From a virus, in the IMG/VR virus record IMGVR_UViG_3300045988_158809: a stretch of 64,000 nucleotides of DNA, one strand, 5' to 3'. Under the pieces are notes generated by a model that ran no database searches, was not told where the DNA came from, and saw only the letters and a list, made by a program, of their open reading frames with translations. Below, in pieces: positions 1 through 39,597 of this stretch (the first letter of the stretch is position 1; the number at the start of each line of letters is the position of its first letter). The position numbers and the translations under genes are program-made.

Positions 1-14
1 TCACTGATTTTTTT
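1..14 (+). repeat. early-region junction motif, 3' part (TCACTGATTTTTTT), cut by window edge
   Basis: Identical to the 3' half of the motif at 428-461, 695-728 and other junctions. Confidence 0.6.
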
Positions 15-54
15 CAATGCTTTTGTATCTTTTTGGGATGCCGTTCAGGAAGTA

Positions 55-390
55 ATGAAAGAACAGCCGGAAGAAGAAAAACAGCCGGAGCCGGAAGATA
101 TTGCAAAAGTGCTGGAAGTATTCCCGGCTTTACTAGATGCCGTTTGTGAAATAATGAAAGCGGAGCCAGGCAAGGAGCCACGGAACAAGGAACGCGAACA
201 GGGTACCAATGAAATATATAATTCCGTTTGCTCCTCCGCTATTCTTTCGGGTGATTATATCAAGGCACGCCAGGAAATAAAACAGGCTATAAGGCAATAC
301 CGTTTTACGTTGCCACAGCTCAAATATTTGATTTATATCCTGAATACTCACCCCGGCATAAAAAGGGAAAGCCACAGAAAGGCGGCATAA
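55..390 (+). CDS. hypothetical protein (111 aa)
   Basis: ORF track; flanked by junction motifs; no domain recognised. Confidence 0.6.
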   Translation: MKEQPEEEKQPEPEDIAKVLEVFPALLDAVCEIMKAEPGKEPRNKEREQGTNEIYNSVCSSAILSGDYIKARQEIKQAIRQYRFTLPQLKYLIYILNTHPGIKRESHRKAA

Positions 391-427
391 GCCGCCAGGC
401 CTTGCGCCGGAGCGGTTTATATTCGAG

Positions 428-461
428 CCTATGGACTCCGACAGAAATCACTGATTTTTTT
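428..461 (+). repeat. early-region junction motif CCTATGG-N-AAATCACTGATTTTTTT
   Basis: cctatggactccgacagaaatcactgattttttt read directly. Confidence 0.85.
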
Positions 462-499
462 ACTTTATATTGAATCAATAAAAAAACATACACTACATT

Positions 500-691
500 A
501 TGAAAACAAAAAGAATGACAAAAGAAGAAGGCCAACGTTGCAATATTAGCAGATTCCCAAATTTTCATAAATCCGGAAGTATAAAAGGCATGAAACGTTT
601 GTACTATGGCAAAAATGCGCTTTTGGTACGTTGTGGCGATTATATATACAATGTCACATCAGAACCGGAAATATATCAGGCTGCCAGATAA
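500..691 (+). CDS. hypothetical protein (63 aa)
   Basis: ORF track; sits between two junction motifs. Confidence 0.45.
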   Translation: MKTKRMTKEEGQRCNISRFPNFHKSGSIKGMKRLYYGKNALLVRCGDYIYNVTSEPEIYQAAR

Positions 692-694
692 CAG

Positions 695-728
695 CCTATG
701 GAATCCGACAGAAATCACTGATTTTTTT
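695..728 (+). repeat. early-region junction motif
   Basis: cctatggaatccgacagaaatcactgattttttt. Confidence 0.85.
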
Positions 729-747
729 AACTTAAAATATTAAAACT

Positions 748-1176
748 ATGTTTCAGAATATCAAACCTATATCAGAAAAGTCTTATAAAGTTTTTTCATA
801 CCTGGCAGATGCAGCCAGAAACAGCAAAAACCATGCTATAAAAATAAAAAACTCAGAAACATATACCCCCGTTACAGTGGAAATAATTTTTTCTACTCCG
901 GAGTATGAACACGTATCTATATGTCATTACGGCGAAATGAACGGCGATCTTATGGCCGATCCTGAAATGGTTTTCTTCCATGATAAAAAAGAAAATGTGG
1001 CTTATCCAGGTTATTACCTGAACCATTATGCCGGTATAGAACAAACATCTTTGCAATATGATGATTATGGTAAGCCGGTAGGCGTTAGAAGGGCTATGCA
1101 GCGCGGTCAGGCCGATTTTGCAAACATGTGGATGAAAAATATCGACGAACAGCAAGCTTTGGCCCTTATAGGATAA
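748..1176 (+). CDS. hypothetical protein (142 aa)
   Basis: ORF track; contains HYGEMNGDLMADPEM segment; no confident family assignment. Confidence 0.65.
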   Translation: MFQNIKPISEKSYKVFSYLADAARNSKNHAIKIKNSETYTPVTVEIIFSTPEYEHVSICHYGEMNGDLMADPEMVFFHDKKENVAYPGYYLNHYAGIEQTSLQYDDYGKPVGVRRAMQRGQADFANMWMKNIDEQQALALIG

Positions 1177-1180
1177 TAAA

Positions 1181-1238
1181 CCTATGGCCCCATGGAAAAA
1201 TCACTCTATGGGGCTTGACAGAAATCACTGATTTTTTT
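1181..1238 (+). repeat. early-region junction motif, double unit (24-nt phase)
   Basis: cctatggccccatggaaaaatcactctatggggcttgacagaaatcactgattttttt. Confidence 0.85.
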
Positions 1239-1239
1239 C

Positions 1240-1247
1240 TAACTTTG
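1240..1247 (+). promoter_or_regulatory. Bacteroides-type -7 box TAACTTTG
   Basis: Exact TAnnTTTG 5 nt before ATG 1253, which implies a near-leaderless mRNA. Confidence 0.45.
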
Positions 1248-1252
1248 CAAAC

Positions 1253-1555
1253 ATGAATAAAGACTTTTACATATCGACAGAAAAAGGCGTTGAATGCGTT
1301 GTTCAATCTGCTTCCCCTCAGTACATCTTCCAGATTATCCGCACGACGGACGACGCGAAGTTCCGCGCTCTTATGGAAGACTCCACACAGTTATGCCTGC
1401 AGGTGCATCCAGATCATAACATTGCCATCCGGACGGCAGGTAATAAGGTGTATATAGCCATGACATCCGCCAACGTGGAACTTATATATAAAGAGCTTCA
1501 GGAAGTCAAGAGACAGGCTGCTGAATGGCTGTGTGAATACTACGGCATTAAATAG
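1253..1555 (+). CDS. hypothetical protein (100 aa)
   Basis: ORF track; -7 box immediately upstream. Confidence 0.6.
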   Translation: MNKDFYISTEKGVECVVQSASPQYIFQIIRTTDDAKFRALMEDSTQLCLQVHPDHNIAIRTAGNKVYIAMTSANVELIYKELQEVKRQAAEWLCEYYGIK

Positions 1556-1580
1556 TAGAATATTTTTAAAAATAATTGTA

Positions 1581-1618
1581 GTTTTATTTTGCTGCATCAA
1601 AATAAAACCTTATCTTTG
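1581..1618 (+). promoter_or_regulatory. Bacteroides-type promoter (-33 TTTG 1588-1591, 19-nt spacer, -7 TATCTTTG 1611-1618) embedded in an 11-bp AT hairpin
   Basis: gttttattttg/ctgcat/caaaataaaac inverted repeat at 1581-1608; canonical spacing. Confidence 0.65.
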
Positions 1619-1646
1619 TCACAGAATTAAGAAACAAACCATTAAA

Positions 1647-1661
1647 AGTGGGGGCAACACT
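1647..1661 (+). promoter_or_regulatory. conserved 5'-leader stem-loop AGTG-GGGGCAA-CACT
   Basis: Copy 1 of GTGGKGGCAACAC; the closing pair covaries with copies at 2389-2403 and 2727-2741. Confidence 0.45.
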
Positions 1662-1680
1662 ATAAACACCGCGGAAAATC

Positions 1681-2271
1681 ATGAAAAATCAAGTAGTCAT
1701 TACCGTATTCACAAAAAAAGCTGAATACGAGCATCCGGAAGAATACAGAAGTTATGCAGGTGATACCGTATATCAGTGTATGGAAGACATATACTACGAT
1801 TATGAAATTGTAATGAAGTACGGTGTCTCAGCGTCCGACATTGCAGACCGTACGGAAATACTGGTAGAAAATACCGGCGATGCTTTCCGATATAATCCTC
1901 AAACCTGGGAGCACATCGAAAACATGAATCTCGATCCACAGCTCCCTCTGCTTCCCCTTATGAAGAAATCTTTTCTTCCCGCTCTGTTCCTGAGCAACAA
2001 CACAGACCGCCCGGAAGAAGAACAACGCCCGCGCCGTCTGAAGGGTTTTACCTTCGCCATTACCGGTACTTTGAGTACAAAGAGAAAGAACGCCGTGGCT
2101 TATATCCTGGCCAACGGCGGCGATTATCTGCCGCGTGTGACAAAGAATGTAGATTTCCTGATAGTTGGAGAGGATGCCGGCGACACGAAGACAGAACTTT
2201 GTGAGCGTTATGGAATACGGGAAATTTCCGAGTGTGATCTTAGAACTATGGCAGAAGGTAAGGCCGCATAA
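1681..2271 (+). CDS. BRCT-domain protein (196 aa)
   Basis: C-terminal RLKGFTFAITGTLS..RKNAVAYILANGGDYLPRVTKNVDFLIVGEDAG fits the BRCT pattern known from NAD-ligase C-termini. Confidence 0.6.
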   Translation: MKNQVVITVFTKKAEYEHPEEYRSYAGDTVYQCMEDIYYDYEIVMKYGVSASDIADRTEILVENTGDAFRYNPQTWEHIENMNLDPQLPLLPLMKKSFLPALFLSNNTDRPEEEQRPRRLKGFTFAITGTLSTKRKNAVAYILANGGDYLPRVTKNVDFLIVGEDAGDTKTELCERYGIREISECDLRTMAEGKAA

Positions 2272-2313
2272 TTTGATGATATAAAACATATTTTTCCATA
2301 TAAAATAATTGTG

Positions 2314-2351
2314 TTTTTATTTTGCAAAAACAAAATAAAACCTTATCTTTG
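2314..2351 (+). promoter_or_regulatory. Bacteroides-type promoter (-33 TTTG 2321-2324, 19-nt spacer, -7 TATCTTTG 2344-2351) embedded in an AT hairpin
   Basis: ttttattttg/caaaaa/caaaataaaa; near-duplicate of 1581-1618. Confidence 0.65.
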
Positions 2352-2386
2352 TATCAGTGTTAAGGAACAAACATTATTTACTTTTT

Positions 2387-2414
2387 ACCGTGGTGGCAAC
2401 ACGTCAATTCAGCA
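2387..2414 (+). promoter_or_regulatory. 28-nt conserved leader element ACCGTGGTGGCAACACGTCAATTCAGCA
   Basis: Exact 28-nt direct repeat of 2725-2752; ends 8 nt before ATG 2423. Confidence 0.6.
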
Positions 2415-2422
2415 TTATTTAT

Positions 2423-2710
2423 ATGACTAAAAATCTCAACGTATGGTGTACATTATTTCATGAAAGTGAATGTAAAATTTACATACAAGATGAAGATGGT
2501 GAAACACTTTCTGAATATCTACATGTCCAAGGAAATCCAATTTCTGTAAAAGAAGTATATAAAAAAACAGGAGAGATAAAAGGTTCTTATAAAGGGATCT
2601 GTGAATCTGTGAAAGAGATTAAAGAAAGAGAAAAAGAGTTTATGAAAAGAAATAAAGAGGATTTTGCGCGATATTACGGTAGAAGAGAAGCGGATAAATA
2701 CTTTAAATAA
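2423..2710 (+). CDS. hypothetical protein (95 aa)
   Basis: The ORF-track start 2357 runs through the promoter and leader element; the first ATG after the leader is 2423. Confidence 0.55.
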   Translation: MTKNLNVWCTLFHESECKIYIQDEDGETLSEYLHVQGNPISVKEVYKKTGEIKGSYKGICESVKEIKEREKEFMKRNKEDFARYYGRREADKYFK

Positions 2711-2724
2711 AATATTCATTTATA

Positions 2725-2752
2725 ACCGTGGTGGCAACACGTCAATTCAGCA
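2725..2752 (+). promoter_or_regulatory. 28-nt conserved leader element (second exact copy)
   Basis: Identical to 2387-2414; ends 8 nt before ATG 2761. Confidence 0.6.
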
Positions 2753-2760
2753 GACACATT

Positions 2761-3270
2761 ATGTTACTTTACGTCGAAAAAAAATCTTCACAGGAACAAA
2801 TTTATCAGTTTGCAAAAGAAGTAGGTGCAAAATGGATTGTAGTCAATTCAGATCATTATAAGGGAAACAATAAAGGGTATTACCAGGATGTAGAATCTTT
2901 CCGTAGTTCAACGGTATTCCACTGGAATTTAAAACCGGAAGATCGCGGTGCCATTTCTGTATATGTTACGGATATTGATATACCGGCTGCAGTGTCTAAG
3001 AGGATAGAATTACAGCGGGAAATAGTCAGACTTGATTACGATTTTCAGTTATTTATGAAAAAGATTGAGACTGATTATCCTTTGCAGAAAATAGATAAAA
3101 GATGGGGAGTAAATAACCCTAAAAGGCTGGAAATTGAGGAACTTAGAGATAAACGTAGAGAGGCGATAAAGAATGCTTGTGAAGAGCATGACAAAAATGT
3201 AGCTCATATCAAGTCAGAAATGATTTCCACTAATTTCGTTTCTTCCACATTTATAGAATTATCCTTATAA
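2761..3270 (+). CDS. hypothetical protein (169 aa)
   Basis: The ORF-track start 2728 lies inside the leader repeat; ATG 2761 chosen. Confidence 0.6.
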   Translation: MLLYVEKKSSQEQIYQFAKEVGAKWIVVNSDHYKGNNKGYYQDVESFRSSTVFHWNLKPEDRGAISVYVTDIDIPAAVSKRIELQREIVRLDYDFQLFMKKIETDYPLQKIDKRWGVNNPKRLEIEELRDKRREAIKNACEEHDKNVAHIKSEMISTNFVSSTFIELSL

Positions 3271-3281
3271 TTTTTTATAAG

Positions 3282-3312
3282 CCTATGTACTTTCAGAAAA
3301 ATCACTGTTTTT
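3282..3312 (+). repeat. early-region junction motif, variant CCTATGT...AAAATCACTGTTTTT
   Basis: cctatgtactttcagaaaaatcactgttttt. Confidence 0.75.
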
Positions 3313-3337
3313 ATTAAACTTCATAAAATCAATTATC

Positions 3338-3826
3338 ATGAAACGTATTGTAAACATATTAAATATTAATCAGGCTGTATGCCGTTCCAGAGAAGACAAT
3401 ACAATAGTATCTTCTCTGGAAGATGAAAAATTATCTATAGCATTTATCGAGTCTTATCTAAATGGTAATATATGGGGAGTGTATTATCAAGAAGATAACC
3501 TGGTATATGAAACAAAAGACGGTGATATTTATTTCATGTCAGAAGATTGTGTGAAACTATCAGACGACGAACAATTACTTTTTGATACCAGCGATTTCGG
3601 CTGGAAAGTAAATCCGCAAAACTGGGTGTATCTTATAGGTACTGATAGTGTTGAAAAATTGGATTTGGAAGAAAATTCGGCCGATTCTGATAGCGATGTA
3701 TGTTACTATCAGGGAGAGTCTGGAGCCATGGTGACTGAAAAAGATAGTGACGGGACTGAGAATCCACTAAAATCAGGATGGTATCCGTGCTCCAGTTACA
3801 ATGAATATGTTGAATCTTATAATTAA
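3338..3826 (+). CDS. hypothetical protein (162 aa)
   Basis: ORF track; acidic C-terminal half. Confidence 0.65.
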   Translation: MKRIVNILNINQAVCRSREDNTIVSSLEDEKLSIAFIESYLNGNIWGVYYQEDNLVYETKDGDIYFMSEDCVKLSDDEQLLFDTSDFGWKVNPQNWVYLIGTDSVEKLDLEENSADSDSDVCYYQGESGAMVTEKDSDGTENPLKSGWYPCSSYNEYVESYN

Positions 3827-3835
3827 TTTGCTACA

Positions 3836-4273
3836 ATGAAAAAATTCAAAATATCACAAGACCAGATACATTATCAGGACGATAAAGTATTATTATCATT
3901 TGCAGTTGACAAAGGTGTACCGGGATATAATTCGCGTGAAAACAAGTTTTCTGAGCCGTTTGTGGCCGATATAGATGGCCGCATGTATCTTATACGGCCC
4001 GAAAATGTAACATCGTCCTCAGACGGTAAATTCTTCCTTATGGAAGCCGTAATGCCCGACCGCACCATGAACGACGCGGAAATCATTGGATGGAAACTGA
4101 AATGCGCCCGCCAGGACGCCGGGATTACATGCGATGAACTGGCCGATCGTGCCGGCGTGCGGCGTAACACAGTTGAACTCATTGAAAAAGGTTGTTTCAA
4201 CGCGAAAATCAATCTCATTTGCAGCCTGGCAGAAGCTATGGGAATGGAAGTAACACTCACCCCTATGGAGTGA
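3836..4273 (+). CDS. XRE-family HTH protein (145 aa)
   Basis: C-terminal IIGWKLKCARQDAGITCDELADRAGVRRNTVELIEKG matches the Cro/CI-type HTH pattern. Confidence 0.65.
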   Translation: MKKFKISQDQIHYQDDKVLLSFAVDKGVPGYNSRENKFSEPFVADIDGRMYLIRPENVTSSSDGKFFLMEAVMPDRTMNDAEIIGWKLKCARQDAGITCDELADRAGVRRNTVELIEKGCFNAKINLICSLAEAMGMEVTLTPME

Positions 4274-4315
4274 CGGAAAAATCACTCTATGGCACCTCAG
4301 AAAAATCACTGTTTT
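4262..4315 (+). repeat. early-region junction motif, double unit; overlaps the stop codon of 3836..4273
   Basis: cctatggagtgacggaaaaatcactctatggcacctcagaaaaatcactgtttt. Confidence 0.85.
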
Positions 4316-4383
4316 ATCGTCTAAATGTAAATAAACAAACGTAAGGCATACGGAAAAAACTGTATTAAATGGGTATTAAATAT

Positions 4384-4500
4384 AAATTAAAAGCGCGACG
4401 GAGTACGCCGCGCTAGGATACTAAAAGTGTGAAGCAATTCACAAATGAAAACCTACTGATAGTAGATTTTCGTTTTAATCCACAAGGGAAAATCCCTTGA
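4384..4500 (-). ncRNA. candidate ~115-nt structured small RNA on the minus strand
   Basis: Minus-strand -7 box at 4506-4513. Four hairpins follow (CAAGGGA/TCCCTTG, CTACT/AGTAG, GTGAA/TTCAC and GC-rich AGCGCG..CGCGCT at 4392-4414), then TTTAATTT. No ORF. Confidence 0.45.
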
Positions 4501-4505
4501 CGGCA

Positions 4506-4513
4506 CAAAGATA
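4506..4513 (-). promoter_or_regulatory. minus-strand -7 box TATCTTTG
   Basis: + strand reads caaagata; the only leftward promoter-like box in the + strand early block. Confidence 0.45.
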
Positions 4514-4597
4514 GTATTTATCTTATATCCAAAAAATATTCATCATAATTTCTATACCTGTTTTATGAACTGAATTATTATTTTAAAAGAAAAATCA

Positions 4598-5263
4598 ATG
4601 AAAACACAAATAGAGAAACTTAGACAACTTTCAGATAAAAAGAAAGGTGTAGTAATGAATCAATATGTAGATGATTTATTACGCAATGGAAAAGCATATA
4701 CTGTACGGAGCCGGTATAGTGGACGTTACTACCATAAAAAGAGTTATACTGAAGAACTGGATAAACTTCTTACAGAGCATGGCATAAGCCATGAAATAGG
4801 AAACGACGCCCCTCGCGGTGGAATGAATGGTGAGTTTGTATCACTTAAAGGTACTGTGTTAAAGTATGTATTAGACCGCAAAAAGGAAAGAGAGGAATTC
4901 TGGAAAGCAGAACAAGATGGCAAGGATAAACAAAGGAAATTGGCTTATGAAAGATATAAACAGGAATGCGAAAAAACTTATAAGTTCTGCGTGGAGAATA
5001 ATATAGAAATTGATTTTTCTTACTTTACTGAAAAAGATAATGAAAGGTTTTTCCATCTTGATTATGACGATATAAAGAAGGAAAAATTAGGATATAAAAT
5101 ATCTATTCCTAAACGCTTTTACGGTATAGCATCGAGGTCTTCAGGTGTACATTCGAATGAAGGATTTCGTAGATACGTTAAAGAAAAACTGTTGTCTTCG
5201 GGTTTATCGCATGAAGGGTGCAAGATTACTAAAGTTTACGACTGTGGCGTTGGCGATGGTTAA
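4598..5263 (+). CDS. hypothetical protein (221 aa)
   Basis: ORF track; Lys/Glu-rich. Confidence 0.65.
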   Translation: MKTQIEKLRQLSDKKKGVVMNQYVDDLLRNGKAYTVRSRYSGRYYHKKSYTEELDKLLTEHGISHEIGNDAPRGGMNGEFVSLKGTVLKYVLDRKKEREEFWKAEQDGKDKQRKLAYERYKQECEKTYKFCVENNIEIDFSYFTEKDNERFFHLDYDDIKKEKLGYKISIPKRFYGIASRSSGVHSNEGFRRYVKEKLLSSGLSHEGCKITKVYDCGVGDG

Positions 5264-5272
5264 TTTATACCA

Positions 5273-5309
5273 CCTATGGAGTTTCAGAAATATCACTGTT
5301 TTGTTTTTT
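5273..5309 (+). repeat. early-region junction motif, variant ...AAATATCACTGTTTTGTTTTTT
   Basis: cctatggagtttcagaaatatcactgttttgtttttt. Confidence 0.8.
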
Positions 5310-5322
5310 AATTATACTATTT

Positions 5323-5616
5323 ATGGACGAAAGATTTATAATTACACGATTTACTGACGATACAAACCGCTGGGCGTTGGAAGACACTGAGTTTGGAGTG
5401 TTGTATGAATATGTTGGCGCAGACCTTAACCCTGTAAATATCCTTACAGAAAAGAAAGGATTTTTCGACGGCAAGAAAGGACATCAGCGGATGGTTAATT
5501 TAGGAGTGGACGCTATCCAGTTCATCATAAAGAATCATGAGAAGATTTTCAGACTGGCCGAAATAGAAGAAGATGATATTGATGAATATCCGCAAATGGC
5601 GACAGAACTGAACTGA
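5323..5616 (+). CDS. hypothetical protein (97 aa)
   Basis: ORF track. Confidence 0.55.
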   Translation: MDERFIITRFTDDTNRWALEDTEFGVLYEYVGADLNPVNILTEKKGFFDGKKGHQRMVNLGVDAIQFIIKNHEKIFRLAEIEEDDIDEYPQMATELN

Positions 5617-5656
5617 GTTATCCCGAATAAATCCGTTTCTCTTTATTATATTCAAC

Positions 5657-5688
5657 CCTATGGACCTATAAAAATATCACTGTTTTTT
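5657..5688 (+). repeat. early-region junction motif abutting start codon 5689
   Basis: cctatggacctataaaaatatcactgtttttt followed directly by ATG. Confidence 0.8.
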
Positions 5689-6144
5689 ATGCAAGTATTC
5701 GTAACATCTACATCGTGTATCGAGACCGCCTCACAGCTCGACAAGAAAAGACTTAACAAACAGATTATAGAAGCCGGACAAATCCTTAAAGCCATAAGAG
5801 GGGAGGGGAAAGGCTGGCACCATCATCCTGCTACCCTGATGTATTCACACCACACGGCATGGCTGGAGCTTTACCGTCTTTGCCTGCAGGCCTACATGTC
5901 CGGCAACACTCAGGAGGCAGAAGCATACAGCCGACAGGCAGACGCGATACGTCCGCCCTTCCTGACAGACAGCCTTTGCGAGCAGCACAGAAAACGCCTG
6001 TTCACCAAAGCTCCGGAGCTATATCCTTTATTCCAGGCGTACGGCACGAGCCGCGAGAACTGGTATATTGTAGATGGCAGATTATTGAGATATATCGACG
6101 GCAAACTTATAAAGAAGCCTATGGAAAATGCCGGAAATCACTGA
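5689..6144 (+). CDS. possible pyrimidine-dimer DNA glycosylase (endonuclease V/DenV)-like protein (151 aa)
   Basis: N-terminal LDKKRLNKQIIEAGQILKAIRGEGKGWHHHP resembles the LD.KgL...EA..L.G...GY.hHP pattern of bacterial Pyr_excise-type proteins; recalled by eye only. Confidence 0.4.
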   Translation: MQVFVTSTSCIETASQLDKKRLNKQIIEAGQILKAIRGEGKGWHHHPATLMYSHHTAWLELYRLCLQAYMSGNTQEAEAYSRQADAIRPPFLTDSLCEQHRKRLFTKAPELYPLFQAYGTSRENWYIVDGRLLRYIDGKLIKKPMENAGNH

Positions 6145-6151
6145 TTTTTTT
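6118..6151 (+). repeat. early-region junction motif; its TGA is the stop codon of 5689..6144
   Basis: cctatggaaaatgccggaaatcactgattttttt. Confidence 0.85.
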
Positions 6152-6229
6152 ATTTATAATCGTGTCGGCAAAAAAAGATTGTAGTGAATACTGATTATAA
6201 TAGAAGTAACAATTAAAAATGTAGATATT

Positions 6230-7006
6230 ATGGGAAAATACGATTTCGATGATTCAATATATGACTATGAAGAAGAATTGTTTTATAACATTCGTTACTC
6301 AGACGATGTGACATTGATAGAAAATGTATCACATCTGCGTCATCACATAAACTGTCATGGCTTTAGTGAAAAATTATATGAGTATCTGAATATGGATTAC
6401 GAACAAATCTGTCAAGTGGTGGAATGCGCCAAAGGATCTATTTCTGTGGCAAGTCTGAGAAAAGATTTTAATGGCGTTATGGCTCCATTGATTGAGGAAA
6501 AACAGCGTAAAGAGGAAGCAATGGCAAAGAATGAAAAACTCATTGCCTGCCTGAAGGACAAAAGAAAAACTATGTGTGGAATAGGGACAAGAAAGCTGAA
6601 ACTGTTCCTTAACAAACTGATAAAGCAAGGTGACACAACAGCAGCTTTATATAGGACAGTACTGGAAGCAGAAGACTTTAATATTAAAGCAAAAGATACC
6701 CGTCTTGATTACAAGGAAAAAGTTTACGAAAAAAAGCATGAAGAAATACACAAACTGATAGAATTATGCCGTGAATATGGAGTCACGTTCGGGAAACAGT
6801 TGTCCGATGTCAGAGATACACGATATGTGGTTTATTTTGAACTGCCAAATATGGAACAAATCAGTTTTCATACGGATTTGATTGATGCCGGTAAGATACC
6901 CGACTATACGAAGGAGTGGGACGGCAAGCGATGTTCCACCCTCGGAAAGATTGAGAATGCCATTAATTTCAGATACAGAGATAGGATTGAAGAAGTCTAT
7001 AAATAA
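6230..7006 (+). CDS. hypothetical protein (258 aa)
   Basis: ORF track. Confidence 0.65.
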   Translation: MGKYDFDDSIYDYEEELFYNIRYSDDVTLIENVSHLRHHINCHGFSEKLYEYLNMDYEQICQVVECAKGSISVASLRKDFNGVMAPLIEEKQRKEEAMAKNEKLIACLKDKRKTMCGIGTRKLKLFLNKLIKQGDTTAALYRTVLEAEDFNIKAKDTRLDYKEKVYEKKHEEIHKLIELCREYGVTFGKQLSDVRDTRYVVYFELPNMEQISFHTDLIDAGKIPDYTKEWDGKRCSTLGKIENAINFRYRDRIEEVYK

Positions 7007-7089
7007 ATCTGAACCTATATTTATCAGGAATTATAATAATTGTTTCAATCTTATTGAGAAAACGATTAATGCACAGGCTTACAGAGTAG

Positions 7090-7124
7090 CCTATGGAACT
7101 TGACATAAATCACTGATTTTTTTT
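7090..7124 (+). repeat. early-region junction motif
   Basis: cctatggaacttgacataaatcactgatttttttt. Confidence 0.85.
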
Positions 7125-7137
7125 AAATATTGGAATT

Positions 7138-8088
7138 ATGGAAGAATTAGACAGACAGATAATTGAAATGTACCGTGCAGGCATAAAGGTGTCCGAAATT
7201 TGTCGTACATTGGGCACACACACCCAGAAAGTATATAAGGTGCTCCGAGAAAACAATATCTCGAAGAACGGACGCCGACTGACTCCGGAAGTTATTCAGG
7301 AAATTGCAGAAAAGCTTCGTCAGGATGTGCCATCTACAAAGCTGGCCGAACAGTACGGATGCTCCGTCTGGACCATACACAAGATTATGCGCGAAAACAA
7401 CATACCTATGCAGGTGGGCCGTCCGTGGCATCGCCGCAAAGACAAGCAGGCAGCATCCGCGCCATCTGCTCCCATCCCTGAGTCCTTACAAGCTCCCGAA
7501 ATGCCTGATTCGCTTCGCGCACTGGTCATGGCACCTGAAAACCGTACGTACTTTGCCTGTTTCCACAAAAACAAAAAAGAAGTGTCTTCTGCAGCCGAAG
7601 CGGTAGCCTTTCTGTATTCCGTCATGTCACGCCGTTTCACGCTGTCGTCCGACGACGTGACTCGCATAGAGCAGACATTTGCCCAGCTACAGGCATTCGA
7701 CAAACCGCGCCAGACGCTTGTATGCCCGCTCAGCATAAATGAAAATCTCCGTTTTAAGATTATGCTGGCACCGGAAGTGAACGCGCAGTACAGCGCATTC
7801 CAGAAGGGACGCGACGAGAGTGTGGTGAGATTGAAAAAGACAGACTGGCGGGCTTTTAATCCGGGCATGTACGGCATCTGTATTCCGGTAGGCGTGTATT
7901 CTGAGAATGGCGATGCGGTGAAGTATTACGACTTTAAGGGAGCGGTTCAGGCCGAATGCAAGGAGCAGGCATACGATCGTGCGCTGGATAAGTTGAAGGC
8001 AGAAACCGGTGAAGATCGTTTCAACAGCCTGAAAGTTCCTGGCAAGTACAGCGACAAGGTAAAATTCACTTTCAAGCCTATGGACTGA
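7138..8088 (+). CDS. DNA-binding protein with two tandem N-terminal HTH repeats (316 aa)
   Basis: IEMYRAGIKVSEICRTLGTHTQKVYKVLRENNI and LRQDVPSTKLAEQYGCSVWTIHKIMRENNI are repeated HTH-like units. Confidence 0.55.
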   Translation: MEELDRQIIEMYRAGIKVSEICRTLGTHTQKVYKVLRENNISKNGRRLTPEVIQEIAEKLRQDVPSTKLAEQYGCSVWTIHKIMRENNIPMQVGRPWHRRKDKQAASAPSAPIPESLQAPEMPDSLRALVMAPENRTYFACFHKNKKEVSSAAEAVAFLYSVMSRRFTLSSDDVTRIEQTFAQLQAFDKPRQTLVCPLSINENLRFKIMLAPEVNAQYSAFQKGRDESVVRLKKTDWRAFNPGMYGICIPVGVYSENGDAVKYYDFKGAVQAECKEQAYDRALDKLKAETGEDRFNSLKVPGKYSDKVKFTFKPMD

Positions 8089-8134
8089 CAAAAATATCAC
8101 CCTATGGAGTTTTTGAGAAATCACTGATTTTTTT
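8077..8134 (+). repeat. early-region junction motif, double unit; overlaps the stop of 7138..8088
   Basis: cctatggactgacaaaaatatcaccctatggagtttttgagaaatcactgattttttt. Confidence 0.85.
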
Positions 8135-8154
8135 GAAACATTCATTCCATTAAA

Positions 8155-8802
8155 ATGAAAAAGAACAGATTGTTTGAAGAGCGTAAAAGAAAAGTGTCCG
8201 CAAAAGCCAAAGAATTGGTCGATTCAGCTTTTAAACGAATTGATGAAGAGCATGAACTTTTAAAGGACAAAAATCTGCCTAAAGAGGATTTATTTCAATC
8301 AATATCTAAAACAACAAACATGAAAAAAGAATTCACATTAGAACAACTCGTAACGATACGCGACGTGTTTGCCGACATGTGCGACAAGCAGATTGAACGC
8401 GGAAAAAGAGATTTGGCAGAAGAATATCTGGACATTGTGAATGTAGTTCAAGCCAAAACAGGATGCGACGAATACGAAAGTCTGGAAGATTTTCAACTTG
8501 ACGAGAGTGGAACTTACGGCTATGCGGAAAAGAGAGAGCTGGACGACCTGGAAGAAGTGGCAGTGGACGAAATGATAGCTTTCGCAAAGTCTTCTGACGA
8601 GCAGCCATGGGAAATACTGAAAGCGAGAGTAAACAATTATCTGGAGGATGTTTCGGCAAACACAGGCATGACCCGTAAGGACACAATAGACCGTAGAACC
8701 ATTTGCATAAACAGGCTAATTATTCATTGTATCCATGCCTGCACCAGCGAAGAATTGAAGCGTCTGGACGGGATAGTAAAAGAACTTGCAGAGAATTTTT
8801 AG
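8155..8802 (+). CDS. hypothetical protein (215 aa)
   Basis: ORF track; acidic. Confidence 0.65.
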   Translation: MKKNRLFEERKRKVSAKAKELVDSAFKRIDEEHELLKDKNLPKEDLFQSISKTTNMKKEFTLEQLVTIRDVFADMCDKQIERGKRDLAEEYLDIVNVVQAKTGCDEYESLEDFQLDESGTYGYAEKRELDDLEEVAVDEMIAFAKSSDEQPWEILKARVNNYLEDVSANTGMTRKDTIDRRTICINRLIIHCIHACTSEELKRLDGIVKELAENF

Positions 8803-8868
8803 CCTATGGGCTCGGAGAAATATCACTCTATGGCATTTGCCAGAAATCACTGATTTTCCCACCTATGA
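8803..8868 (+). repeat. early-region junction motif, double unit plus a third partial CCTATGA; last copy in the window
   Basis: cctatgggctcggagaaatatcactctatggcatttgccagaaatcactgattttcccacctatga. Confidence 0.8.
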
Positions 8869-8965
8869 TTACGGTAAAAATATTTTACACTAAAATCACG
8901 CAAAAAAGTCGCTACGAAAACAAAAAATTTCTACCGCGGTAGCAAAAAAACGCCTTCGTAGTCAC

Positions 8966-9011
8966 ATAAAAAATAAGCATACAGTCCGGTAGTTCTGTAT
9001 GCTTATTTTTT
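8966..9011. terminator. bidirectional intrinsic terminator
   Basis: 12-bp stem ataagcatacag / ctgtatgcttat with a 10-nt loop, flanked by an A-run and a T-run; lies between convergent gene blocks. Confidence 0.7.
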
Positions 9012-9025
9012 ATTCAGATGTCGGT

Positions 9026-9490
9026 TTAAGTCAACTCTCCACCTCCACCGTCTTCACCACCGCCAGACTCTCCGCCGCCACCGGGTGATGTCGGTTCCGT
9101 GTCGGCTTCTTCGTAAGACACGACCGACAGATTACCGATAAATTCACGAAGTTTCTTTCCCGGTTGGAAAAGTATATGTTTGCGTTTTATGGAGTCCACT
9201 GTGGCTGTATCTGCCGTGTCCTGGCTTGCTGCGCTGAAAGTTGGTTTGAAGATACCGAAATCGCCAAGCCTTACGCCGTGACCTTGTTTCATAAACGTAA
9301 TACTTACTTCAATAAGAGCTTCTATAGCTGCATAGACTTCACCGTTATTAAGACGTGATTGTTTAGCGACTTCCTGAAGAATGTCCTCATAGCTGACTGT
9401 GTGGTTTCGCTGTGCGGTAGCCACATACTTTTCTGCTTTAGTCTTGTCGAAAGCAAAAACTCTTTTCTTTACTTTGTAACCTAATGGCAT
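9026..9490 (-). CDS. HU/IHF-like DNA-binding protein, Bacteroidota type, with Gly/Glu-rich tail (154 aa)
   Basis: VSYEDILQEVAKQSRLNNGEVYAAIEALIEVSITFMKQGHGVRLGDFGIFKPTF fits the HU-fold pattern. Start moved to MPLGYKV (ATG 9490) from ORF-track 9562. Confidence 0.65.
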   Translation of the reverse strand: MPLGYKVKKRVFAFDKTKAEKYVATAQRNHTVSYEDILQEVAKQSRLNNGEVYAAIEALIEVSITFMKQGHGVRLGDFGIFKPTFSAASQDTADTATVDSIKRKHILFQPGKKLREFIGNLSVVSYEEADTEPTSPGGGGESGGGEDGGGGELT

Positions 9491-9587
9491 AATTTTAAGG
9501 TTTAGTTTTTGTGTTTTGTATTGTGCTGCATCTACCGGAATGCGCCATAAAGATAAAAACAATTATCGGAAATGCAAATTTTCGGGG

Positions 9588-9625
9588 ATAAAAAAAGCTG
9601 CTGCATTTATAGGTGCAACAGCTTT
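9588..9625 (-). terminator. intrinsic terminator after the rep gene
   Basis: Minus strand reads AAAGCTGTTGCA-loop-TGCAGCAGCTTT followed by TTTTTTT. Confidence 0.55.
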
Positions 9626-9642: not shown

Positions 9643-11187
9643 TTATTTTTGAACTATCTCATACTTAATCTTCGCCTTCTCGCCAAATGCAGCTTCCGAA
9701 GCCTGTTCCAGCAGGGGCTTGAAGTTTTCCTGAATATATGTGTAGAAGAATGCGGTAGGCACTTTAATCGTGACTGTACCGCAGCCCGTTCCGCCGTAAT
9801 CGAGAAAGCGTAGCCAGGTGTTATATTCCGTCACGGTGCAGTTGTTCTGAATCACGTCCATGAAGATTTGCCATGCCTGGAGTTCCTTTTCCGTAGGCTG
9901 CGGGGTGGGGGATGCTTCCTTCTCCTCCTGCTGCCCTTTCTGTTCCGGTGGTTCCGGGTGAGCTTCTGGCGTGCGGCTGGTGATGAAGTTCTTCAGCGAG
10001 GTGATGACGTATGCCTTTACTGAGCGCGGCTTGTATCGCTTCACCATATCGCCCAGTTCGAGCACATATTTGCGGAAGTCGTTCACCAGCTCGTCGGGAA
10101 GCATATCCGACAGGCCTTTCACGTCGGTATCGGTCAGCTTGTATTCGGTGCGAAGGAGCGTCCATGCGTCGGCAGGCTGGTTGATGCGCTTGCGCTGCTG
10201 ACGGAGTTCTTCGCCCAGTCCTGAAAGCTTTATCTGGAACTGCAGGTTTTCGGGGTTTCCCCGCTTTGCGCCATTCTTGTATAGCGGCTTGTAATCAAAA
10301 GTAAAGTCCACGAGGTTGTATTCAGAAAGTTCGTCCAGATCTTCCTTTATCGGGTCGAGCACAGTGGAACAGAAACGTGAAAATTTGGGGTAAATGTCCT
10401 TATCCACCTTCACCTTGTTTCCGTTCTTGTCAGTTTCGGTCACTTCCTCTATCAGTCCGAGGTACTTTTTAAGCTCTACAAGGTTGACTGATTTACTGCC
10501 TATATCCTTCCATCGGGTGAGGTAGATGTAGATGGAAGGGGTGCGCTTGCGCCGGCATATACGGGTGATGTGGCGAAGATGGTTCATGTATCCCAGTCCG
10601 TTTCCGAGGTCGCAAAGGTATCTCAGGGTATTAAGCGACATCTGGACTTCCACATAGTTTTCGCGCCGTGTGGTGCTTTTCTTGTATTTGTATGTGCCTC
10701 CGATTTTCTCTTTTTCGGGAATACTGATTTCGGTGAACACATTTGCGAACACGCGCCTTAGCTGACCTGTTTCGGCATCCCGGCGTATGTAAGTGACGGA
10801 CATGTTTTTCAGATTCCCGCACGTTTCCTGAAGGATATGATACGCGTCCGGCTTTACACCTATCGATGCGGTATCTACGCGCAGAGTGACTATCTTGTTT
10901 TCGGTCTGTTTATTGTCTTTCGACTTATCCAGGCACTCCGCAAGGTCGTTTTCTTCTGGCATTCCGAGTTCAGGGAAAAGTACGAGCTGACGCCCGGCAT
11001 TTCCTTTTTTCAGGTATTGGTTGAACTGGTCCTGCAGGGAGTTCATGAGTTCTATCATGATGCTTCGCTCCGTGAGGGTGAAGTCGCCTCCTATCGTGGC
11101 GTAAAGATACGGCTGCTTGATAAATTCACAGTCTTTCAGCTCGCTTACAAGCTGGCTTTTCGGCAGAATATCTTTCTGTTTTTTCAT
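9643..11187 (-). CDS. replication initiator (plasmid Rep-like N-terminal part) with C-terminal DnaA-domain-I-like module (514 aa)
   Basis: Adjacent to iterons. The C-terminal 80 aa (WQIFMDVIQNNCTVTEYNTWLRFLDY..TVTIKVPTAFFYTYIQENFKPLLEQ..KIKYEIV) mirror the DnaA N-terminal domain pattern. Confidence 0.6.
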   Translation of the reverse strand: MKKQKDILPKSQLVSELKDCEFIKQPYLYATIGGDFTLTERSIMIELMNSLQDQFNQYLKKGNAGRQLVLFPELGMPEENDLAECLDKSKDNKQTENKIVTLRVDTASIGVKPDAYHILQETCGNLKNMSVTYIRRDAETGQLRRVFANVFTEISIPEKEKIGGTYKYKKSTTRRENYVEVQMSLNTLRYLCDLGNGLGYMNHLRHITRICRRKRTPSIYIYLTRWKDIGSKSVNLVELKKYLGLIEEVTETDKNGNKVKVDKDIYPKFSRFCSTVLDPIKEDLDELSEYNLVDFTFDYKPLYKNGAKRGNPENLQFQIKLSGLGEELRQQRKRINQPADAWTLLRTEYKLTDTDVKGLSDMLPDELVNDFRKYVLELGDMVKRYKPRSVKAYVITSLKNFITSRTPEAHPEPPEQKGQQEEKEASPTPQPTEKELQAWQIFMDVIQNNCTVTEYNTWLRFLDYGGTGCGTVTIKVPTAFFYTYIQENFKPLLEQASEAAFGEKAKIKYEIVQK

Positions 11188-11543: not shown

Positions 11544-11601
11544 AATAATGAAATATTATTCTGGCATATTTCTATAAATCGAAATTATAAGAAAATATAT
11601 A

Positions 11602-11737
11602 GTTGTAGTAATTTGTACCTTCAGGCTGAAAAGTTGTAGTAAATTGTACTAAATGTTGGGGTAATTTGTACAATAAGTTGTAGTAATTTGTACCAAATGT
11701 TGTAGTAAATTGTCCCTATAGTTGTAGTAATTTGTAC
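11602..11737 (+). repeat. six 17-bp iterons GTTGTAGTAATTTGTAC
   Basis: Copies start at 11602, 11633, 11655, 11677, 11699 and 11721; the last five are spaced exactly 22 bp. Confidence 0.85.
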
Positions 11738-11932
11738 CGAAGCGTTTTTAATTTGCTGATTTTCAATTATTATTGCATCGTTATATATCTATATCTTATC
11801 ATTTCATATTTAAGCAGAACGAAAGGTATTTATTCTATAAATAATAATCTTTCCTCTTTTCCATATACTATGATGGATATATGATATAGAGAGTTTGTGA
11901 CGGTTGAATTTCAGAAGGTTACAAATGCGTTT
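11738..11932. other. AT-rich spacer between iteron arms (candidate DNA-unwinding region)
   Basis: Visibly AT-rich, no ORF, flanked by oppositely oriented iterons. Confidence 0.4.
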
Positions 11933-12058
11933 GTACAAATTACTACAACATTTGGTACAAAACGCTCAAACATTAGGGGCAAAACGGTGCAACATTACGG
12001 CCAAAATGATACAGCATTAGGGACAAAAAGTTCCAACTATACGGTCACAAAAATAGCA
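11933..12058 (-). repeat. inverted iteron arm: one exact inverted iteron (11933-11949) plus five degenerate 22-bp-phased units
   Basis: gtacaaattactacaac is the reverse complement of the iteron; ACATTnGG-like unit starts at 11948, 11970, 11992, 12014 and 12036. Confidence 0.7.
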
Positions 12059-12532: not shown

Positions 12533-12627
12533 GGATATTTTCTTTATCTAAATGCTAAAAACGACAATAAATCTCCTTTATGTTTAAAAATATATACCAA
12601 AACGGTAAACATTTATGAATACTTTTA

Positions 12628-12868: not shown

Positions 12869-12933
12869 GTGAAAAAACGGCTCAAATGGTATATTAACTT
12901 TTTGTAATGCCCAAAAACATAAAAAATAATATA

Positions 12934-12961
12934 CCATTTTGGTATAGATTCTTTATCTTTG
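12934..12961 (+). promoter_or_regulatory. module-boundary box CCATTTTGGTATAGATTCTTTA fused to -7 box TATCTTTG (12954-12961)
   Basis: Near-identical boxes at 25494-25516 and 49224-49246 (opposite strand) and a related one at 41846-41863. Confidence 0.6.
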
Positions 12962-39040: not shown

Positions 39041-39099
39041 CGGGTAAATTACTTATGTTTCAAAAATATTTTTCTGTTGTGCCGTGCGTTGTGCGTCCT

Positions 39100-39590: not shown

Positions 39591-39597
39591 ACATTTG
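39590..39597 (+). promoter_or_regulatory. -7 box TACATTTG upstream of parA
   Basis: Exact TAnnTTTG 27 nt before ATG 39625. Confidence 0.45.

What the first reader, a model, noticed from the sequence alone, without database searches (positions are those of the whole stretch)
1..8868. One sequence motif marks every gene junction of the first 8.9 kb and nothing else in the window
The motif CCTATGG-N8-10-(A/T)AATCACTG(A)-T5-8 occurs at 12 consecutive junctions (16 units).
- Positions: 1-14 (cut by the window edge), 428, 695, 1181 (double), 3282, 4262 (double), 5273, 5657, 6118, 7090, 8077 (double), 8803 (double plus a partial third).
- Doubled units are phased at exactly 24 nt, with ATCACT running straight into CTATGG.
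- There are two subtypes. AAATCACTGATTT is a 6+1+6 palindrome and is found at 0.4-1.2 kb and 6.1-8.9 kb. A(A/T)ATCACTGTTTT is found at 3.3-5.7 kb.
- The motif is tolerated inside coding ends. The TGA at 6142-6144 is both motif and stop codon, and the stops at 4271-4273 and 8086-8088 fall in the spacer. One copy abuts the start codon at 5689.
- It has no Bacteroides -7 box and no stable hairpin, so it is neither a canonical host promoter nor an intrinsic terminator.

I cannot assign it to any described element. Candidates are a phage-specific early promoter or terminator for a non-host or modified RNA polymerase, an RNA-processing site, or an operator array for one of the early HTH proteins.
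Basis: seen in the sequence. Interest (0 to 1): 0.8.

Follow-up and report, generated by a model that had tools for sequence, protein, structure and literature searches.

The report
Phage gene-junction motif marking swappable cassettes
A 25-base two-box sequence followed by a run of T sits at most gene boundaries in the variable early arm of an uncultured gut phage; it marks exactly where genes, and even protein domains, are swapped between related phages, and it most likely acts as a hairpin-free stop or attenuation signal for transcription.

Summary
The motif is real and far beyond chance. There are 15 full units plus one cut by the window edge, all on the + strand within 1-8868. They score 27-37 bits, and nothing else in the 64 kb exceeds 8 bits.

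- The spacing is fixed, not N8-10: YCTATGG-N12-ATCACY, then G(A)T4-8.
- Four junctions in the stretch lack the motif. Two of these carry host-type Bacteroidota promoter modules.
- The array continues upstream of the window, inside a polyvalent J-domain/LPD29 gene.

The window is about two thirds of an uncultured ~98-kb tailed phage with an iteron/Rep/ParA replicon.

What is shown:
- The same boxes recur in related gut phages whose proteins are only 25-50% identical. There are 120 distinct units with 82 different spacers.
- Single units have no conserved RNA structure.
- Mosaic breakpoints between phages fall inside the conserved boxes.
- Genes and protein modules appear or disappear exactly at the motif.
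- A sister lineage has lost the motif and keeps only decayed relics.

What is inferred:
- A factor-dependent transcript stop or attenuation signal at the T-tract is the most likely function (about 0.35).
- The rivals are a phage-specific promoter, an RNA cleavage site, a roadblock operator and a dedicated recombination site.
- The closest analogue is the PeSL cassette of T4-like phages, but the motif is not a member of that family.

The parts
1..14 (+). 3' part of a unit (TCACTG + T7) cut by the window edge. In the colinear contig the full unit lies inside the 586-aa polyvalent ORF, read in frame as SYGDGEKSLIFF.
428..461 (+). Single unit CCTATGG-N12-ATCACT plus GATTTTTTT, at junction 390/500.
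695..728 (+). Single unit plus GATTTTTTT, at junction 691/748.
1181..1238 (+). Double unit at 24-nt phase plus GATTTTTTT. The RNA can form a 10-11-bp hairpin between the unit-1 spacer and box 1 of unit 2. It is followed by TAACTTTG at 1240.
3282..3312 (+). Single unit (box 1 variant CCTATGT) plus GTTTTT, at junction 3270/3338.
4262..4315 (+). Double unit plus GTTTT. The stop codon of ORF 3836-4273 lies in the spacer of unit 1. The RNA can form an 11-bp hairpin.
5273..5302 (+). Single unit plus GTTTT, at junction 5263/5323.
5657..5688 (+). Single unit plus GTTTTTT, abutting the ATG at 5689.
6118..6151 (+). Single unit plus GATTTTTTT. The TGA at 6142-6144 spans the last base of box 2, the invariant G and the next A, and is the stop codon of ORF 5689-6144.
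7090..7124 (+). Single unit plus GATTTTTTTT, at junction 7006/7138.
8077..8134 (+). Double unit (first unit ends ATCACC) plus GATTTTTTT. The stop codon of ORF 7138-8088 lies in the spacer of unit 1.
8803..8868 (+). Double unit plus GATTTT, then a partial third box 1 (CCTATGA at 8862-8868). It follows the last gene of the block and faces the convergent HU-like gene.
1569..1639 (+). Context: a 71-nt host-type promoter module (TTTG-N19-TATCTTTG) filling a junction that lacks the motif.
2302..2372 (+). Context: a second copy (85% identical) of the host-type promoter module, at another junction that lacks the motif.
8966..9013 (.). Context: a canonical bidirectional hairpin terminator (19-bp perfect arms with T-runs on both sides), about 100 nt after the last unit.

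Best explanation
What it is (shown). A strand-specific, two-box recognition element, YCTATGG-N12-ATCACY. The last five spacer bases are purine-rich (A-R-A-W). At gene junctions it is followed by an invariant G and a T-tract. It is repeated along the accessory early arm of an uncultured ~98-kb Bacteroidota tailed phage. The boxes stay the same in phages whose shared proteins have drifted to 25-50% identity, while the 7-nt core of the spacer is free. The element is therefore read by a sequence-specific factor, not through a fold. It is also the seam of the mosaic: homology between related phages breaks inside its conserved boxes, and genes and in-frame protein modules are gained or lost exactly there.

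How it most likely works (inferred). It punctuates transcripts made by the host RNA polymerase from the host-type promoters of the block. A factor recognises the two boxes in the nascent RNA or on the exposed non-template strand. It takes the place of the terminator hairpin directly upstream of the U-tract. A fraction of polymerases then pause and release, or the RNA ends there. This insulates each cassette and grades expression along the block. Because the same ~19-nt stretch (box 2 plus T-tract) and the 7-nt box 1 recur at every cassette end, phage recombination uses them as short homologies. That makes cassettes, and modules of the polyvalent protein, exchangeable.
For: Reality and specificity:
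- establish the motif. Searches find it in 9 viral and 37 metagenomic stretches, including gut contigs of 82-99 kb.
- One representative genome for each of 185,579 bacterial and archaeal species gave only 5 single, chance-level hits.
- There are 120 distinct units with 82 distinct spacers. Relatives carrying the motif share only 22-52% protein identity.
- Single units show no structure.

Points favouring a 3'-end signal:
- 81% of junction copies have at least 4 T after G(A/T), against 29% of copies inside ORFs.
- The block has no convincing canonical + strand terminator: the only two + strand terminator-like hits are weak and lie inside ORFs. The phage uses canonical hairpin terminators elsewhere.
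- A copy follows the last gene of the block, and none precedes the first gene, which has a host-type promoter instead.
- The median distance from the upstream stop codon is 12 nt, and units often overlap the stop.
- Box 1 and the spacer travel with the upstream gene. Host-type promoter modules always travel with their downstream gene and never swap with a motif.
- In the sister lineage that lost the motif, the DUF6908 gene has no replacement promoter at the decayed site, so the motif was not needed to start its transcript.

Recombination role:
- Breakpoints fall at positions 6-7, 10-17 or 27-34 of the unit.
- Module indels in the polyvalent protein lie exactly at the motif.
Against: - No transcript data exist, and no binding factor was identified.
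- Copies with a full T7 tract occur inside the polyvalent ORF, where efficient termination would be harmful. Any stop must therefore be partial or conditional.
- Junctions carry either the motif (59) or a host-type promoter module (20), never both. That exclusivity is what one would expect if the motif were itself a promoter or a 5'-end-forming site.
- Ten or more genes lie downstream of motifs with no other promoter, so read-through must be substantial.
- The linkage of box 1 and spacer to the upstream gene could simply follow from the longest homology lying at the 3' side of the unit.
- A strong canonical terminator with a + strand T-run lies 100 nt beyond the last unit, so transcription evidently passes the motif.
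Confidence: 0.35

Rival explanations
1. Phage-specific promoter. Host RNA polymerase, redirected by a phage-encoded sigma-like or activator protein, starts at or near the T-tract of each unit, giving each cassette its own transcript.
For: - The information content (27-37 bits) and the one-copy-per-gene pattern resemble phage-specific promoters.
- The motif and host-type promoter modules are mutually exclusive at junctions: 59 / 20 / 0 both.
- The distance from the invariant G to the next ATG clusters at 16-32 nt.
- The geometry CTATGG - 17/18 nt - TGn + T-rich resembles -35 / extended -10 spacing (inference).
Against: - The last copy has no gene downstream, and the first gene of the block has no copy.
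- Box 1 and the spacer are linked to the upstream gene, unlike the true promoter modules.
- The decayed motif in the sister lineage was not replaced by any promoter.
- No RNAP or sigma-like gene was recognised.
- The first units of doubles have no T-tract.
Confidence: 0.2
2. RNA-processing site. A sequence-specific endoribonuclease, or a host RNase guided by a bound protein, cuts the polycistronic early RNA in the U-rich tract. This creates separate mRNAs, as RNase III sites do between T7 early genes.
For: - The position is at junctions and after the last gene, and absent before the first.
- Exclusivity with promoter modules fits the idea that each gene gets a defined 5' end either way.
- The motif is single-stranded, and a U-rich tract follows it.
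Against: - Copies inside the polyvalent ORF would cut its mRNA.
- No candidate nuclease was identified.
- Nothing distinguishes this from termination without RNA data.
Confidence: 0.12
3. DNA operator or roadblock array ('stoperator-like'). A phage repressor binds the asymmetric double-stranded site at each junction and blocks elongating polymerase in an orientation-dependent way. This would silence the accessory arm in a plasmid-prophage state.
For: - The site is asymmetric and two-box, with many copies in one orientation relative to transcription, mostly in short intergenic spaces and sometimes inside ORFs.
- The phage has a plasmid-type replicon, with iterons, a Rep protein and ParA.
- Tandem arrays of units occur.
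Against: - No copy lies at or near any promoter or in the HTH/Rep control region.
- The candidate HTH proteins do not co-vary with the motif.
- The T-tract lies downstream of the site, where a roadblock would not use it.
- The motif is confined to one 11-kb arm.
Confidence: 0.1
4. Dedicated recombination site. The unit is the address of a site-specific or guided recombination system that inserts and excises cassettes, in an integron-like manner. The expression signals would be secondary.
For: - Every mapped mosaic breakpoint lies within or at the edge of the unit.
- Indels of genes and of in-frame protein modules fall exactly at the unit.
- 33 of 35 ORF-internal copies share one reading frame, which keeps exchanged modules in frame.
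- Doubles join precisely at ATCACY|CTATGG although their spacers are unrelated.
Against: - No integrase or recombinase was recognised in the proteins scanned from the block and the window.
- The site lacks the inverted-repeat or folded architecture of known recombinase sites.
- Breakpoints are spread over both conserved boxes, as expected for short-homology recombination, rather than falling at one crossover point.
- The T-tract is unexplained.
- An exonuclease of the phage recombination type is present, so general recombination suffices.
Confidence: 0.1

Closest known systems
PeSL (promoter-early stem-loop) cassettes of T4-like phages (PMC2839356, PMC4122927)
   Same: Both are short conserved regulatory repeats. 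Both concentrate at the junctions of small non-essential genes in hyperplastic regions, and both serve as points of exchange for insertions, deletions and replacements between related phages.
   Different: PeSLs are built from a host sigma-70 consensus promoter plus a stable stem-loop. This motif has neither the host (Bacteroidota) promoter consensus nor a conserved stem-loop. It also occurs in frame inside a protein-coding gene at domain boundaries.
Mycobacteriophage stoperators (cluster A repressor sites; PMC9283540)
   Same: Both are asymmetric sites present in many copies, in one orientation relative to transcription, mostly in short intergenic spaces, and they affect elongation rather than initiation (abstract seen).
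   Different: Stoperators are 13-bp contiguous sites spread over the whole genome, and they match the operator at the early promoter. This unit is 25 nt with two boxes and a T-tract, is confined to one arm, and has no copy at any promoter. No binding protein is known.
Intrinsic (Rho-independent) terminators
   Same: Both have a T-tract of 4-8 on the sense strand directly after the conserved element, and both lie just downstream of stop codons.
   Different: Single units have no G+C-rich hairpin and no covarying pairs. The same phage uses canonical hairpin terminators elsewhere.
Hairpin-independent, sequence-specific stop signals: T7 RNAP class II signal ATCTGTT + U-run, and the poxvirus early signal TTTTTNT (own knowledge)
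   Same: Both combine a conserved short sequence with a U-run and no hairpin. ATCACTGTTTT superficially resembles ATCTGTTTT.
   Different: Those signals are read by viral polymerases or their cofactors. No polymerase gene was recognised in this phage. The resemblance is a lead, not a test.
Integron attC sites (own knowledge)
   Same: Both are one oriented site at the 3' end of each promoterless cassette in an array driven from upstream promoters.
   Different: attC sites are imperfect inverted repeats recognised as folded single strands by an adjacent IntI integrase. Here there is no fold and no integrase was found, and the sequence rather than the structure is conserved.
Intergenic repeats of halovirus HF2 that carry promoters (PMC8707807)
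   Same: Both are families of 29-58-bp repeats at gene junctions of a virus genome (abstract seen).
   Different: Those repeats are in an archaeal virus, are AT-rich, and have demonstrated promoter activity. There is no sequence relation, and no promoter evidence here.

Membership tests
Intrinsic terminator | Stable G+C-rich stem-loop immediately upstream of the U-tract | tested here: not met
   Single units give z-scores from +1.2 to -1.9. RNAalifold finds 0 pairs on 30 distinct units. The terminator scan finds none at the units. Some 24-nt doubles fold, but the stem ends 18 nt before the T-tract.
Intrinsic terminator | U-tract of about 4-9 directly after the element | tested here: met
   86 of 106 distinct junction copies have at least 4 T after G(A/T).
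Bacteroidota primary-sigma promoter | -33 TTTG and -7 TAnnTTTG at about 19-nt spacing (consensus from own knowledge) | tested here: not met
   The consensus scan finds such promoters at 1611, 2344 and 12954 but not in the units. Only the copy at 1205-1238 is followed by a -7-like box.
PeSL cassettes | Host consensus promoter plus stem-loop in one cassette | tested here: not met
   compared with the definition read.
PeSL cassettes | Concentrated at junctions of variable small genes, with indels and replacements between relatives that break at the repeat | tested here: met
Stoperator array | The same site also forms the operator at the early lytic promoter and is bound by the immunity repressor | tested here: not met
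   No unit or half-palindrome lies near any promoter or in 8.9-13 kb. Repressor binding is not testable here.
Stoperator array | Asymmetric site, many copies, one orientation relative to transcription | tested here: met
   All copies in all multi-copy loci lie on the gene strand.
Integron attC / cassette array | Imperfect inverted repeats that fold as a single strand, with an adjacent tyrosine recombinase (IntI) | tested here: not met
   There is no fold. No recombinase domain was found in the block or in the scanned window proteins, although many ORFs are unannotatable.
Promoter or terminator of a phage-encoded RNA polymerase | A phage RNAP gene in the genome | tested here: inconclusive
   No DFDxD/DxDGD motif occurs in any long frame of the window. 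No RNAP family appears in the Pfam/PHROGs scans. The gene maps of most of the rest of the genome show a tape-measure protein, primases, TerL and a portal-like protein. Many ORFs have no detectable family, and a few kb of the genome were not seen.
Known RNA families (Rfam 15) | A match at gathering score | tested here: not met
   0 matches in the whole window.
ops/RfaH-type or consensus elemental pause | G(-10), Y(-1), G(+1) and a ~12-nt non-template-strand element | tested here: inconclusive
   ATCAC[T/C]G gives an invariant Y(-1)G(+1). Position -10 is A in 110 of 120 units, and -11 is G in 70 of 120. Factor binding is not testable.

The most novel reading that the evidence does not exclude
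The motif is the address of a purpose-built shuffling device for a phage counter-defence arsenal. Accessory genes are exchanged at it. Because nearly all ORF-internal copies keep one reading frame (xCC TAT GGn ... AAA TCA CTG), whole protein domains of the J-domain/LPD29 polyvalent protein are exchanged in frame at the same address. This would be a prokaryotic-virus analogue of phase-compatible exon shuffling or of an integron. TnpB/omega-RNA cassettes that sit between units may use motif units as homing targets.
Probability: 0.12. Interest if true: 0.9.

Novelty: new variant of a known kind. Interest (0 to 1): 0.6.

Why it matters
- Nothing is known about how large uncultured Bacteroidota phages organise early transcription. 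A high-information, hairpin-free junction signal read by an unknown factor would be a new control element for gut-phage biology, and a candidate insulator part for Bacteroides engineering.
- Independently of its molecular function, the motif gives a base-pair-resolution view of how a phage family swaps accessory (probably anti-defence) genes and fuses them into a polyvalent protein.
- The same seam is used between genes and between protein domains, and one case shows a former 5' leader now translated as a linker.
- The sister lineage that lost the motif provides a natural control for finding the factor.

Tried and rejected
- **Mini-ORF.** The ATG of CCTATGG is in frame with the TGA of ACTGA (7 codons). 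Rejected: stop codons are not depleted in that frame (18/120 units, against 18 and 16 in the other frames).
- **TGA recoding at 59-60.6 kb.** Only TGA stops appear in one minus frame there. Rejected: the region is the antisense of a + strand 1852-aa tape-measure gene.
- **Antisense or guide RNA partner.** No reverse-complement copy of the unit exists anywhere in the window or in the loci covering most of the rest of the genome. The AGTGAT cluster at 39.1-39.3 kb belongs to a centromere-like repeat field upstream of ParA.
- **Cro/CI-type HTH next to Rep as binder.** Its control region holds no unit or palindrome and has other palindromes.
- **IHF-like reading of box 2.** AATCACTGATTTT compared with WATCARNNNNTTR, given the adjacent HU-like gene. 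This is recalled from memory only, has two mismatches, and does not fit the internal units of doubles. It is kept as a lead.
- **crAss-like virion-RNAP promoters.** That paper reports no common early motif, and this phage is not crAss-like.
- **Close relatives in annotated collections.** None were found in the phage or plasmid collections. Only distant protein matches were found.
- **Literature search for the sequence.** It returned only unrelated primer hits.
- **Bulk Pfam scan of 40 middle-region ORFs.** Almost nothing was recognisable.
- **Rfam search around the TnpB cassette.** No match.

Full report

Yes. Reading 1-9600 and anchoring on ATCAC shows 15 complete units and one cut by the window edge.
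- I number the unit from its first base. Box 1 is positions 1-7. The spacer is 8-19, and its last five bases are purine-rich. Box 2 is positions 20-25.
- Terminal units are followed by an invariant G at position 26, an optional A, and 4-8 T.
- In doubles the next unit starts on the last base of the previous one, which gives the 24-nt phase.
- A PWM built from the 15 units scores them at 27-37 bits. Nothing else on either strand of the 64 kb exceeds 8 bits, and shuffled sequence peaks at 5-17 bits.
- The pattern search gave 5 exact matches against 0 expected. The repeat finder recovers the family without prior knowledge.

The title claim 'every gene junction' is too strong. Four junctions lack the motif: 1555/1681, 2271/2423, 2710/2761 and 3826/3836.

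The array is also not bounded by the window. The colinear contig has two further copies upstream, and the edge copy lies inside a long ORF.

**2. What is the window?**

It is about two thirds of an uncultured tailed phage of about 95-98 kb.
- Exact copies of its proteins occur on many gut-metagenome contigs of that size.
- Upstream of the block lies an endolysin.
- Downstream lie an iteron origin (22-nt repeats at 11598-11740, with an inverted set at 11924-12055), a Rep3/DnaA_N initiator and an HU-like gene.
- Further on are ParA with a centromere-like repeat field, an exonuclease, a DNA methylase and a radical-SAM protein.
- There is also a 1852-aa tape-measure gene starting near 59292.
- TerL and a portal-sized ORF lie in the remainder of the genome.
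- TerL is at most 33% identical to terminases of Bacteroidota phages, and Rep is distantly related to Bacteroidales plasmid initiators.
- Consensus Bacteroidota promoters (TTTG...TAnnTTTG) head the gene blocks.
- No close relative exists in the annotated phage or plasmid collections.
- No RNA polymerase-like gene was recognised.

**3. Distribution beyond the window**

- The pattern with its T-tract occurs in 9 IMG/VR stretches and 37 metagenome stretches. The multi-copy ones include gut contigs of 82-99 kb.
- It gives only 5 single, chance-level hits in one representative genome for each of 185,579 bacterial and archaeal species. It is therefore a phage feature, not a host one.
- Across these loci there are 120 distinct units with 82 distinct 7-nt spacer cores. 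The boxes are essentially invariant.
- Some motif-bearing relatives share only 22-52% protein identity with the window phage in the few genes they have in common.
- In every multi-copy locus all copies lie on the strand of the genes.

Such sequence conservation with a free spacer, and no fold, points to recognition by a protein or other sequence reader. The absence of a fold rests on two results:
- RNAalifold finds 0 pairs on 30 distinct units.
- Single-unit z-scores range from +1.2 to -1.9.

**4. The seam of the mosaic (shown)**

I compared all pairs of copies that share one flanking gene but not the other.
- When the upstream gene is shared, homology ends right after box 1 (position 6-7), at the end of the T-tract (30-34), or after the second unit of a double.
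- When the downstream gene is shared, homology begins at box 2 (10-17) or in the T-tract (27-31).

Crossovers therefore lie inside the conserved boxes, mostly in the 19-nt box 2 plus T-tract. Box 1 and the spacer travel with the upstream gene.

Examples:
- In L040 the 258-aa gene (6230-7006 here) is absent, and a single unit joins its two neighbours.
- L001/L006 and L003/L004 carry different cassettes between conserved units.

**5. Copies inside a gene**

- The 586-aa J-domain/LPD29 polyvalent protein upstream contains two units, read as SYGDGEKSL.
- Across the family, 33 of 35 ORF-internal copies use this one frame, although a second frame is also open.
- Within intact copies the synonymous positions inside the boxes do not vary (TAT, TCA, CTG/CCG, preceding codon NCC). 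The third base of the Gly codon, which lies outside the box, does vary. That scan can only see fairly intact copies.
- Homologues of the protein show module indels exactly at the units. P0113 lacks the 110-aa KAFAVVGDT module, and one unit marks the joint.
- P0049 and L015 have a whole cassette inserted after the unit, and its AT-rich former leader is translated in frame.
- In the 583-aa class the copy has decayed (SYAEPENVLIF).

Intragenic copies are thus products of the same exchange process and can be lost.

**6. A lineage without the motif**

- Phages carrying the 583-aa protein (78% identical) have no intact unit in about 20 kb around it.
- Only a relic remains after the polyvalent gene: GCTATGGAATTTTTCAAAAATCACAgattctt.
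- Their junctions are short and plain. One has a canonical hairpin terminator followed by a host-type promoter.
- The DUF6908 gene behind the relic has no replacement promoter.
- The small HTH upstream of the block is 88% conserved there, so it is not a motif-specific factor.

**7. What does the unit do?**

Evidence for a 3'-end or punctuation signal:
- The T-tract is present in 81% of junction copies and only 29% of ORF-internal copies.
- The block has no convincing canonical + strand terminator; the only two + strand hits are weak and lie inside ORFs. The phage uses canonical terminators elsewhere.
- A copy lies after the last gene, and none lies before the first.
- Units are close to, or overlap, the upstream stop codon.
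- Box 1 and the spacer are linked to the upstream gene. By contrast, host-type promoter modules stay with their downstream genes in every homologous occurrence and are never exchanged for a motif.
- The decayed site in the sister lineage needed no new promoter.

Evidence against:
- Full units with T7 tracts occur inside an ORF.
- Junction types are mutually exclusive: 59 with the motif, 20 with a host-type promoter module, 0 with both, and 62 with neither.
- Many downstream genes need read-through.
- A strong bidirectional terminator lies 100 nt after the last unit.

My reading is a partial or conditional, factor-dependent stop or attenuator, in which a bound factor replaces the hairpin upstream of the U-tract. 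My confidence is about 0.35. The rivals are a promoter (0.2), a cleavage site (0.12), a roadblock operator (0.1) and a dedicated recombination site (0.1). The remainder is unknown.

Only the final Y-G of ATCACYG fits the consensus pause element. Position -10 is A.

The 24-nt doubles can fold through box 1 pairing with the next box 1 (CUAUGG pairs with itself through G-U) and through GUGA:UCAC. Only 6 of 18 do so more than spacer-shuffled controls. I do not know why the 24-nt phase recurs with unrelated spacers.

**8. Comparison with known systems**

- Functionally the closest system is the PeSL cassette of T4-like phages. These are conserved regulatory repeats at junctions of variable small genes that mediate modular shuffling.
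- The motif is not a PeSL, because both defining parts are absent: the host consensus promoter and the stem-loop.
- It shares orientation and copy number with mycobacteriophage stoperators, but it has no copy at any promoter.
- It shares array logic with integron attC sites, but it has no fold and no integrase.
- It has the T-tract of an intrinsic terminator, but not the hairpin.
- No Rfam family matches. A literature search for the sequence found nothing relevant.

**9. Verdict**

The motif is a real, family-wide, high-information junction element of unknown reader. Its role as the boundary of gene and domain exchange is shown. Its molecular function is inferred, and RNA-end mapping can test it directly. 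I rate it as a new variant of a known kind (regulatory junction repeats that drive modular shuffling), with interest about 0.6.

Noticed in passing
window 11598-11740 and 11924-12055; Rep 9643-11187 (-); ParA 39625-40479; 39060-39600: Plasmid-type replicon in a tailed phage. It has six 22-nt iterons, an inverted set of five, a Rep3/DnaA_N initiator, ParA, and a ~500-nt field of 8-nt GTGAGTAA/CACTTAC repeats in inverted halves upstream of ParA (centromere-like). This suggests a phage-plasmid lifestyle.
   Followed up: partly
window 1569-1639 and 2302-2372 (also L007 ~6640-6680, L035 ~3760-3810): A conserved ~71-80-nt promoter module with a perfect Bacteroidota consensus (TTTG-N19-TATCTTTG) recurs in the block and across the family. 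It always stays with the same downstream genes and never shares a junction with the motif.
   Followed up: yes
window 4320-4597: This 287-nt gene-free gap after a double unit holds a minus-strand consensus promoter (TATCTTTG at 4513 with TTTG at -33) and a minus-strand hairpin terminator (4414-4392). A small RNA of about 100 nt, antisense to the block, is possible.
   Followed up: no
L015 2562-2830, 2857-4088, 4089-4290; also L003 13495-14607, L065 5484-6782 and 15987-17147: TnpB (IS605 OrfB) cassettes sit between motif units. In L015 six tandem 45-nt units precede the gene. The sequence right after the presumed omega-RNA region is a unit lacking its first CCT (ATGGACTTTCACAGAAATCACT), identical to an intact unit in other family members (L035 7775, L056 2742). 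The guide may therefore target a motif unit. No Rfam match.
   Followed up: partly
L007 7883-9643 (window 1-390 is its 3' end); P0049, P0113; L015 1026-1742: The polyvalent protein combines a J-domain, LPD29, a small KAFAVVGDT module and a C-terminal module. In some phages a complete downstream cassette, including its AT-rich 5' leader, is fused in frame and translated as a linker.
   Followed up: yes
L065-L067 (contigs carrying protein P0012): A sister lineage with a 78% identical polyvalent protein has no intact motif. Only decayed relics remain, and its junctions are ordinary tight operon junctions. It is a natural control for finding the trans-acting factor.
   Followed up: partly
window 2375-2414 and 2713-2752: A 40-nt leader repeat (CCGTGGTGGCAACACGTCAATTCAGCA, 90% identical) lies upstream of two adjacent genes. 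Related GC-rich palindromic leaders (for example ggaccccggcgccggtccggttaaccgg) precede the first genes of the block in L035 4230-4600.
   Followed up: no
window 12586-12626 and 12913-12953: Inverted 41-nt arms containing TATACCAAAACGGTA / TACCATTTTGGTATA sit next to consensus promoters at 12628 and 12954. They are probable operators of the switch region between the Rep operon and the long + strand block.
   Followed up: no
L007 5283-5600 (upstream of the window); also L035 3440-3720: A lone TTCACTGATTTTT (box-2-like half plus T-run, with no box 1) stands at the very start of the early arm. It is followed by a ~300-nt G+C-rich stretch, unlike the rest of the genome, that is called as a 140-aa ORF.
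   Followed up: no
window 8966-9013: A perfect 19-bp-arm bidirectional terminator with T-runs on both sides lies between the early block and the convergent HU-like gene.
   Followed up: partly
window 59292-64000: The + strand ORF running off the window end is an 1852-aa tape-measure-domain protein. The short minus-strand ORFs listed there are artefacts.
   Followed up: yes
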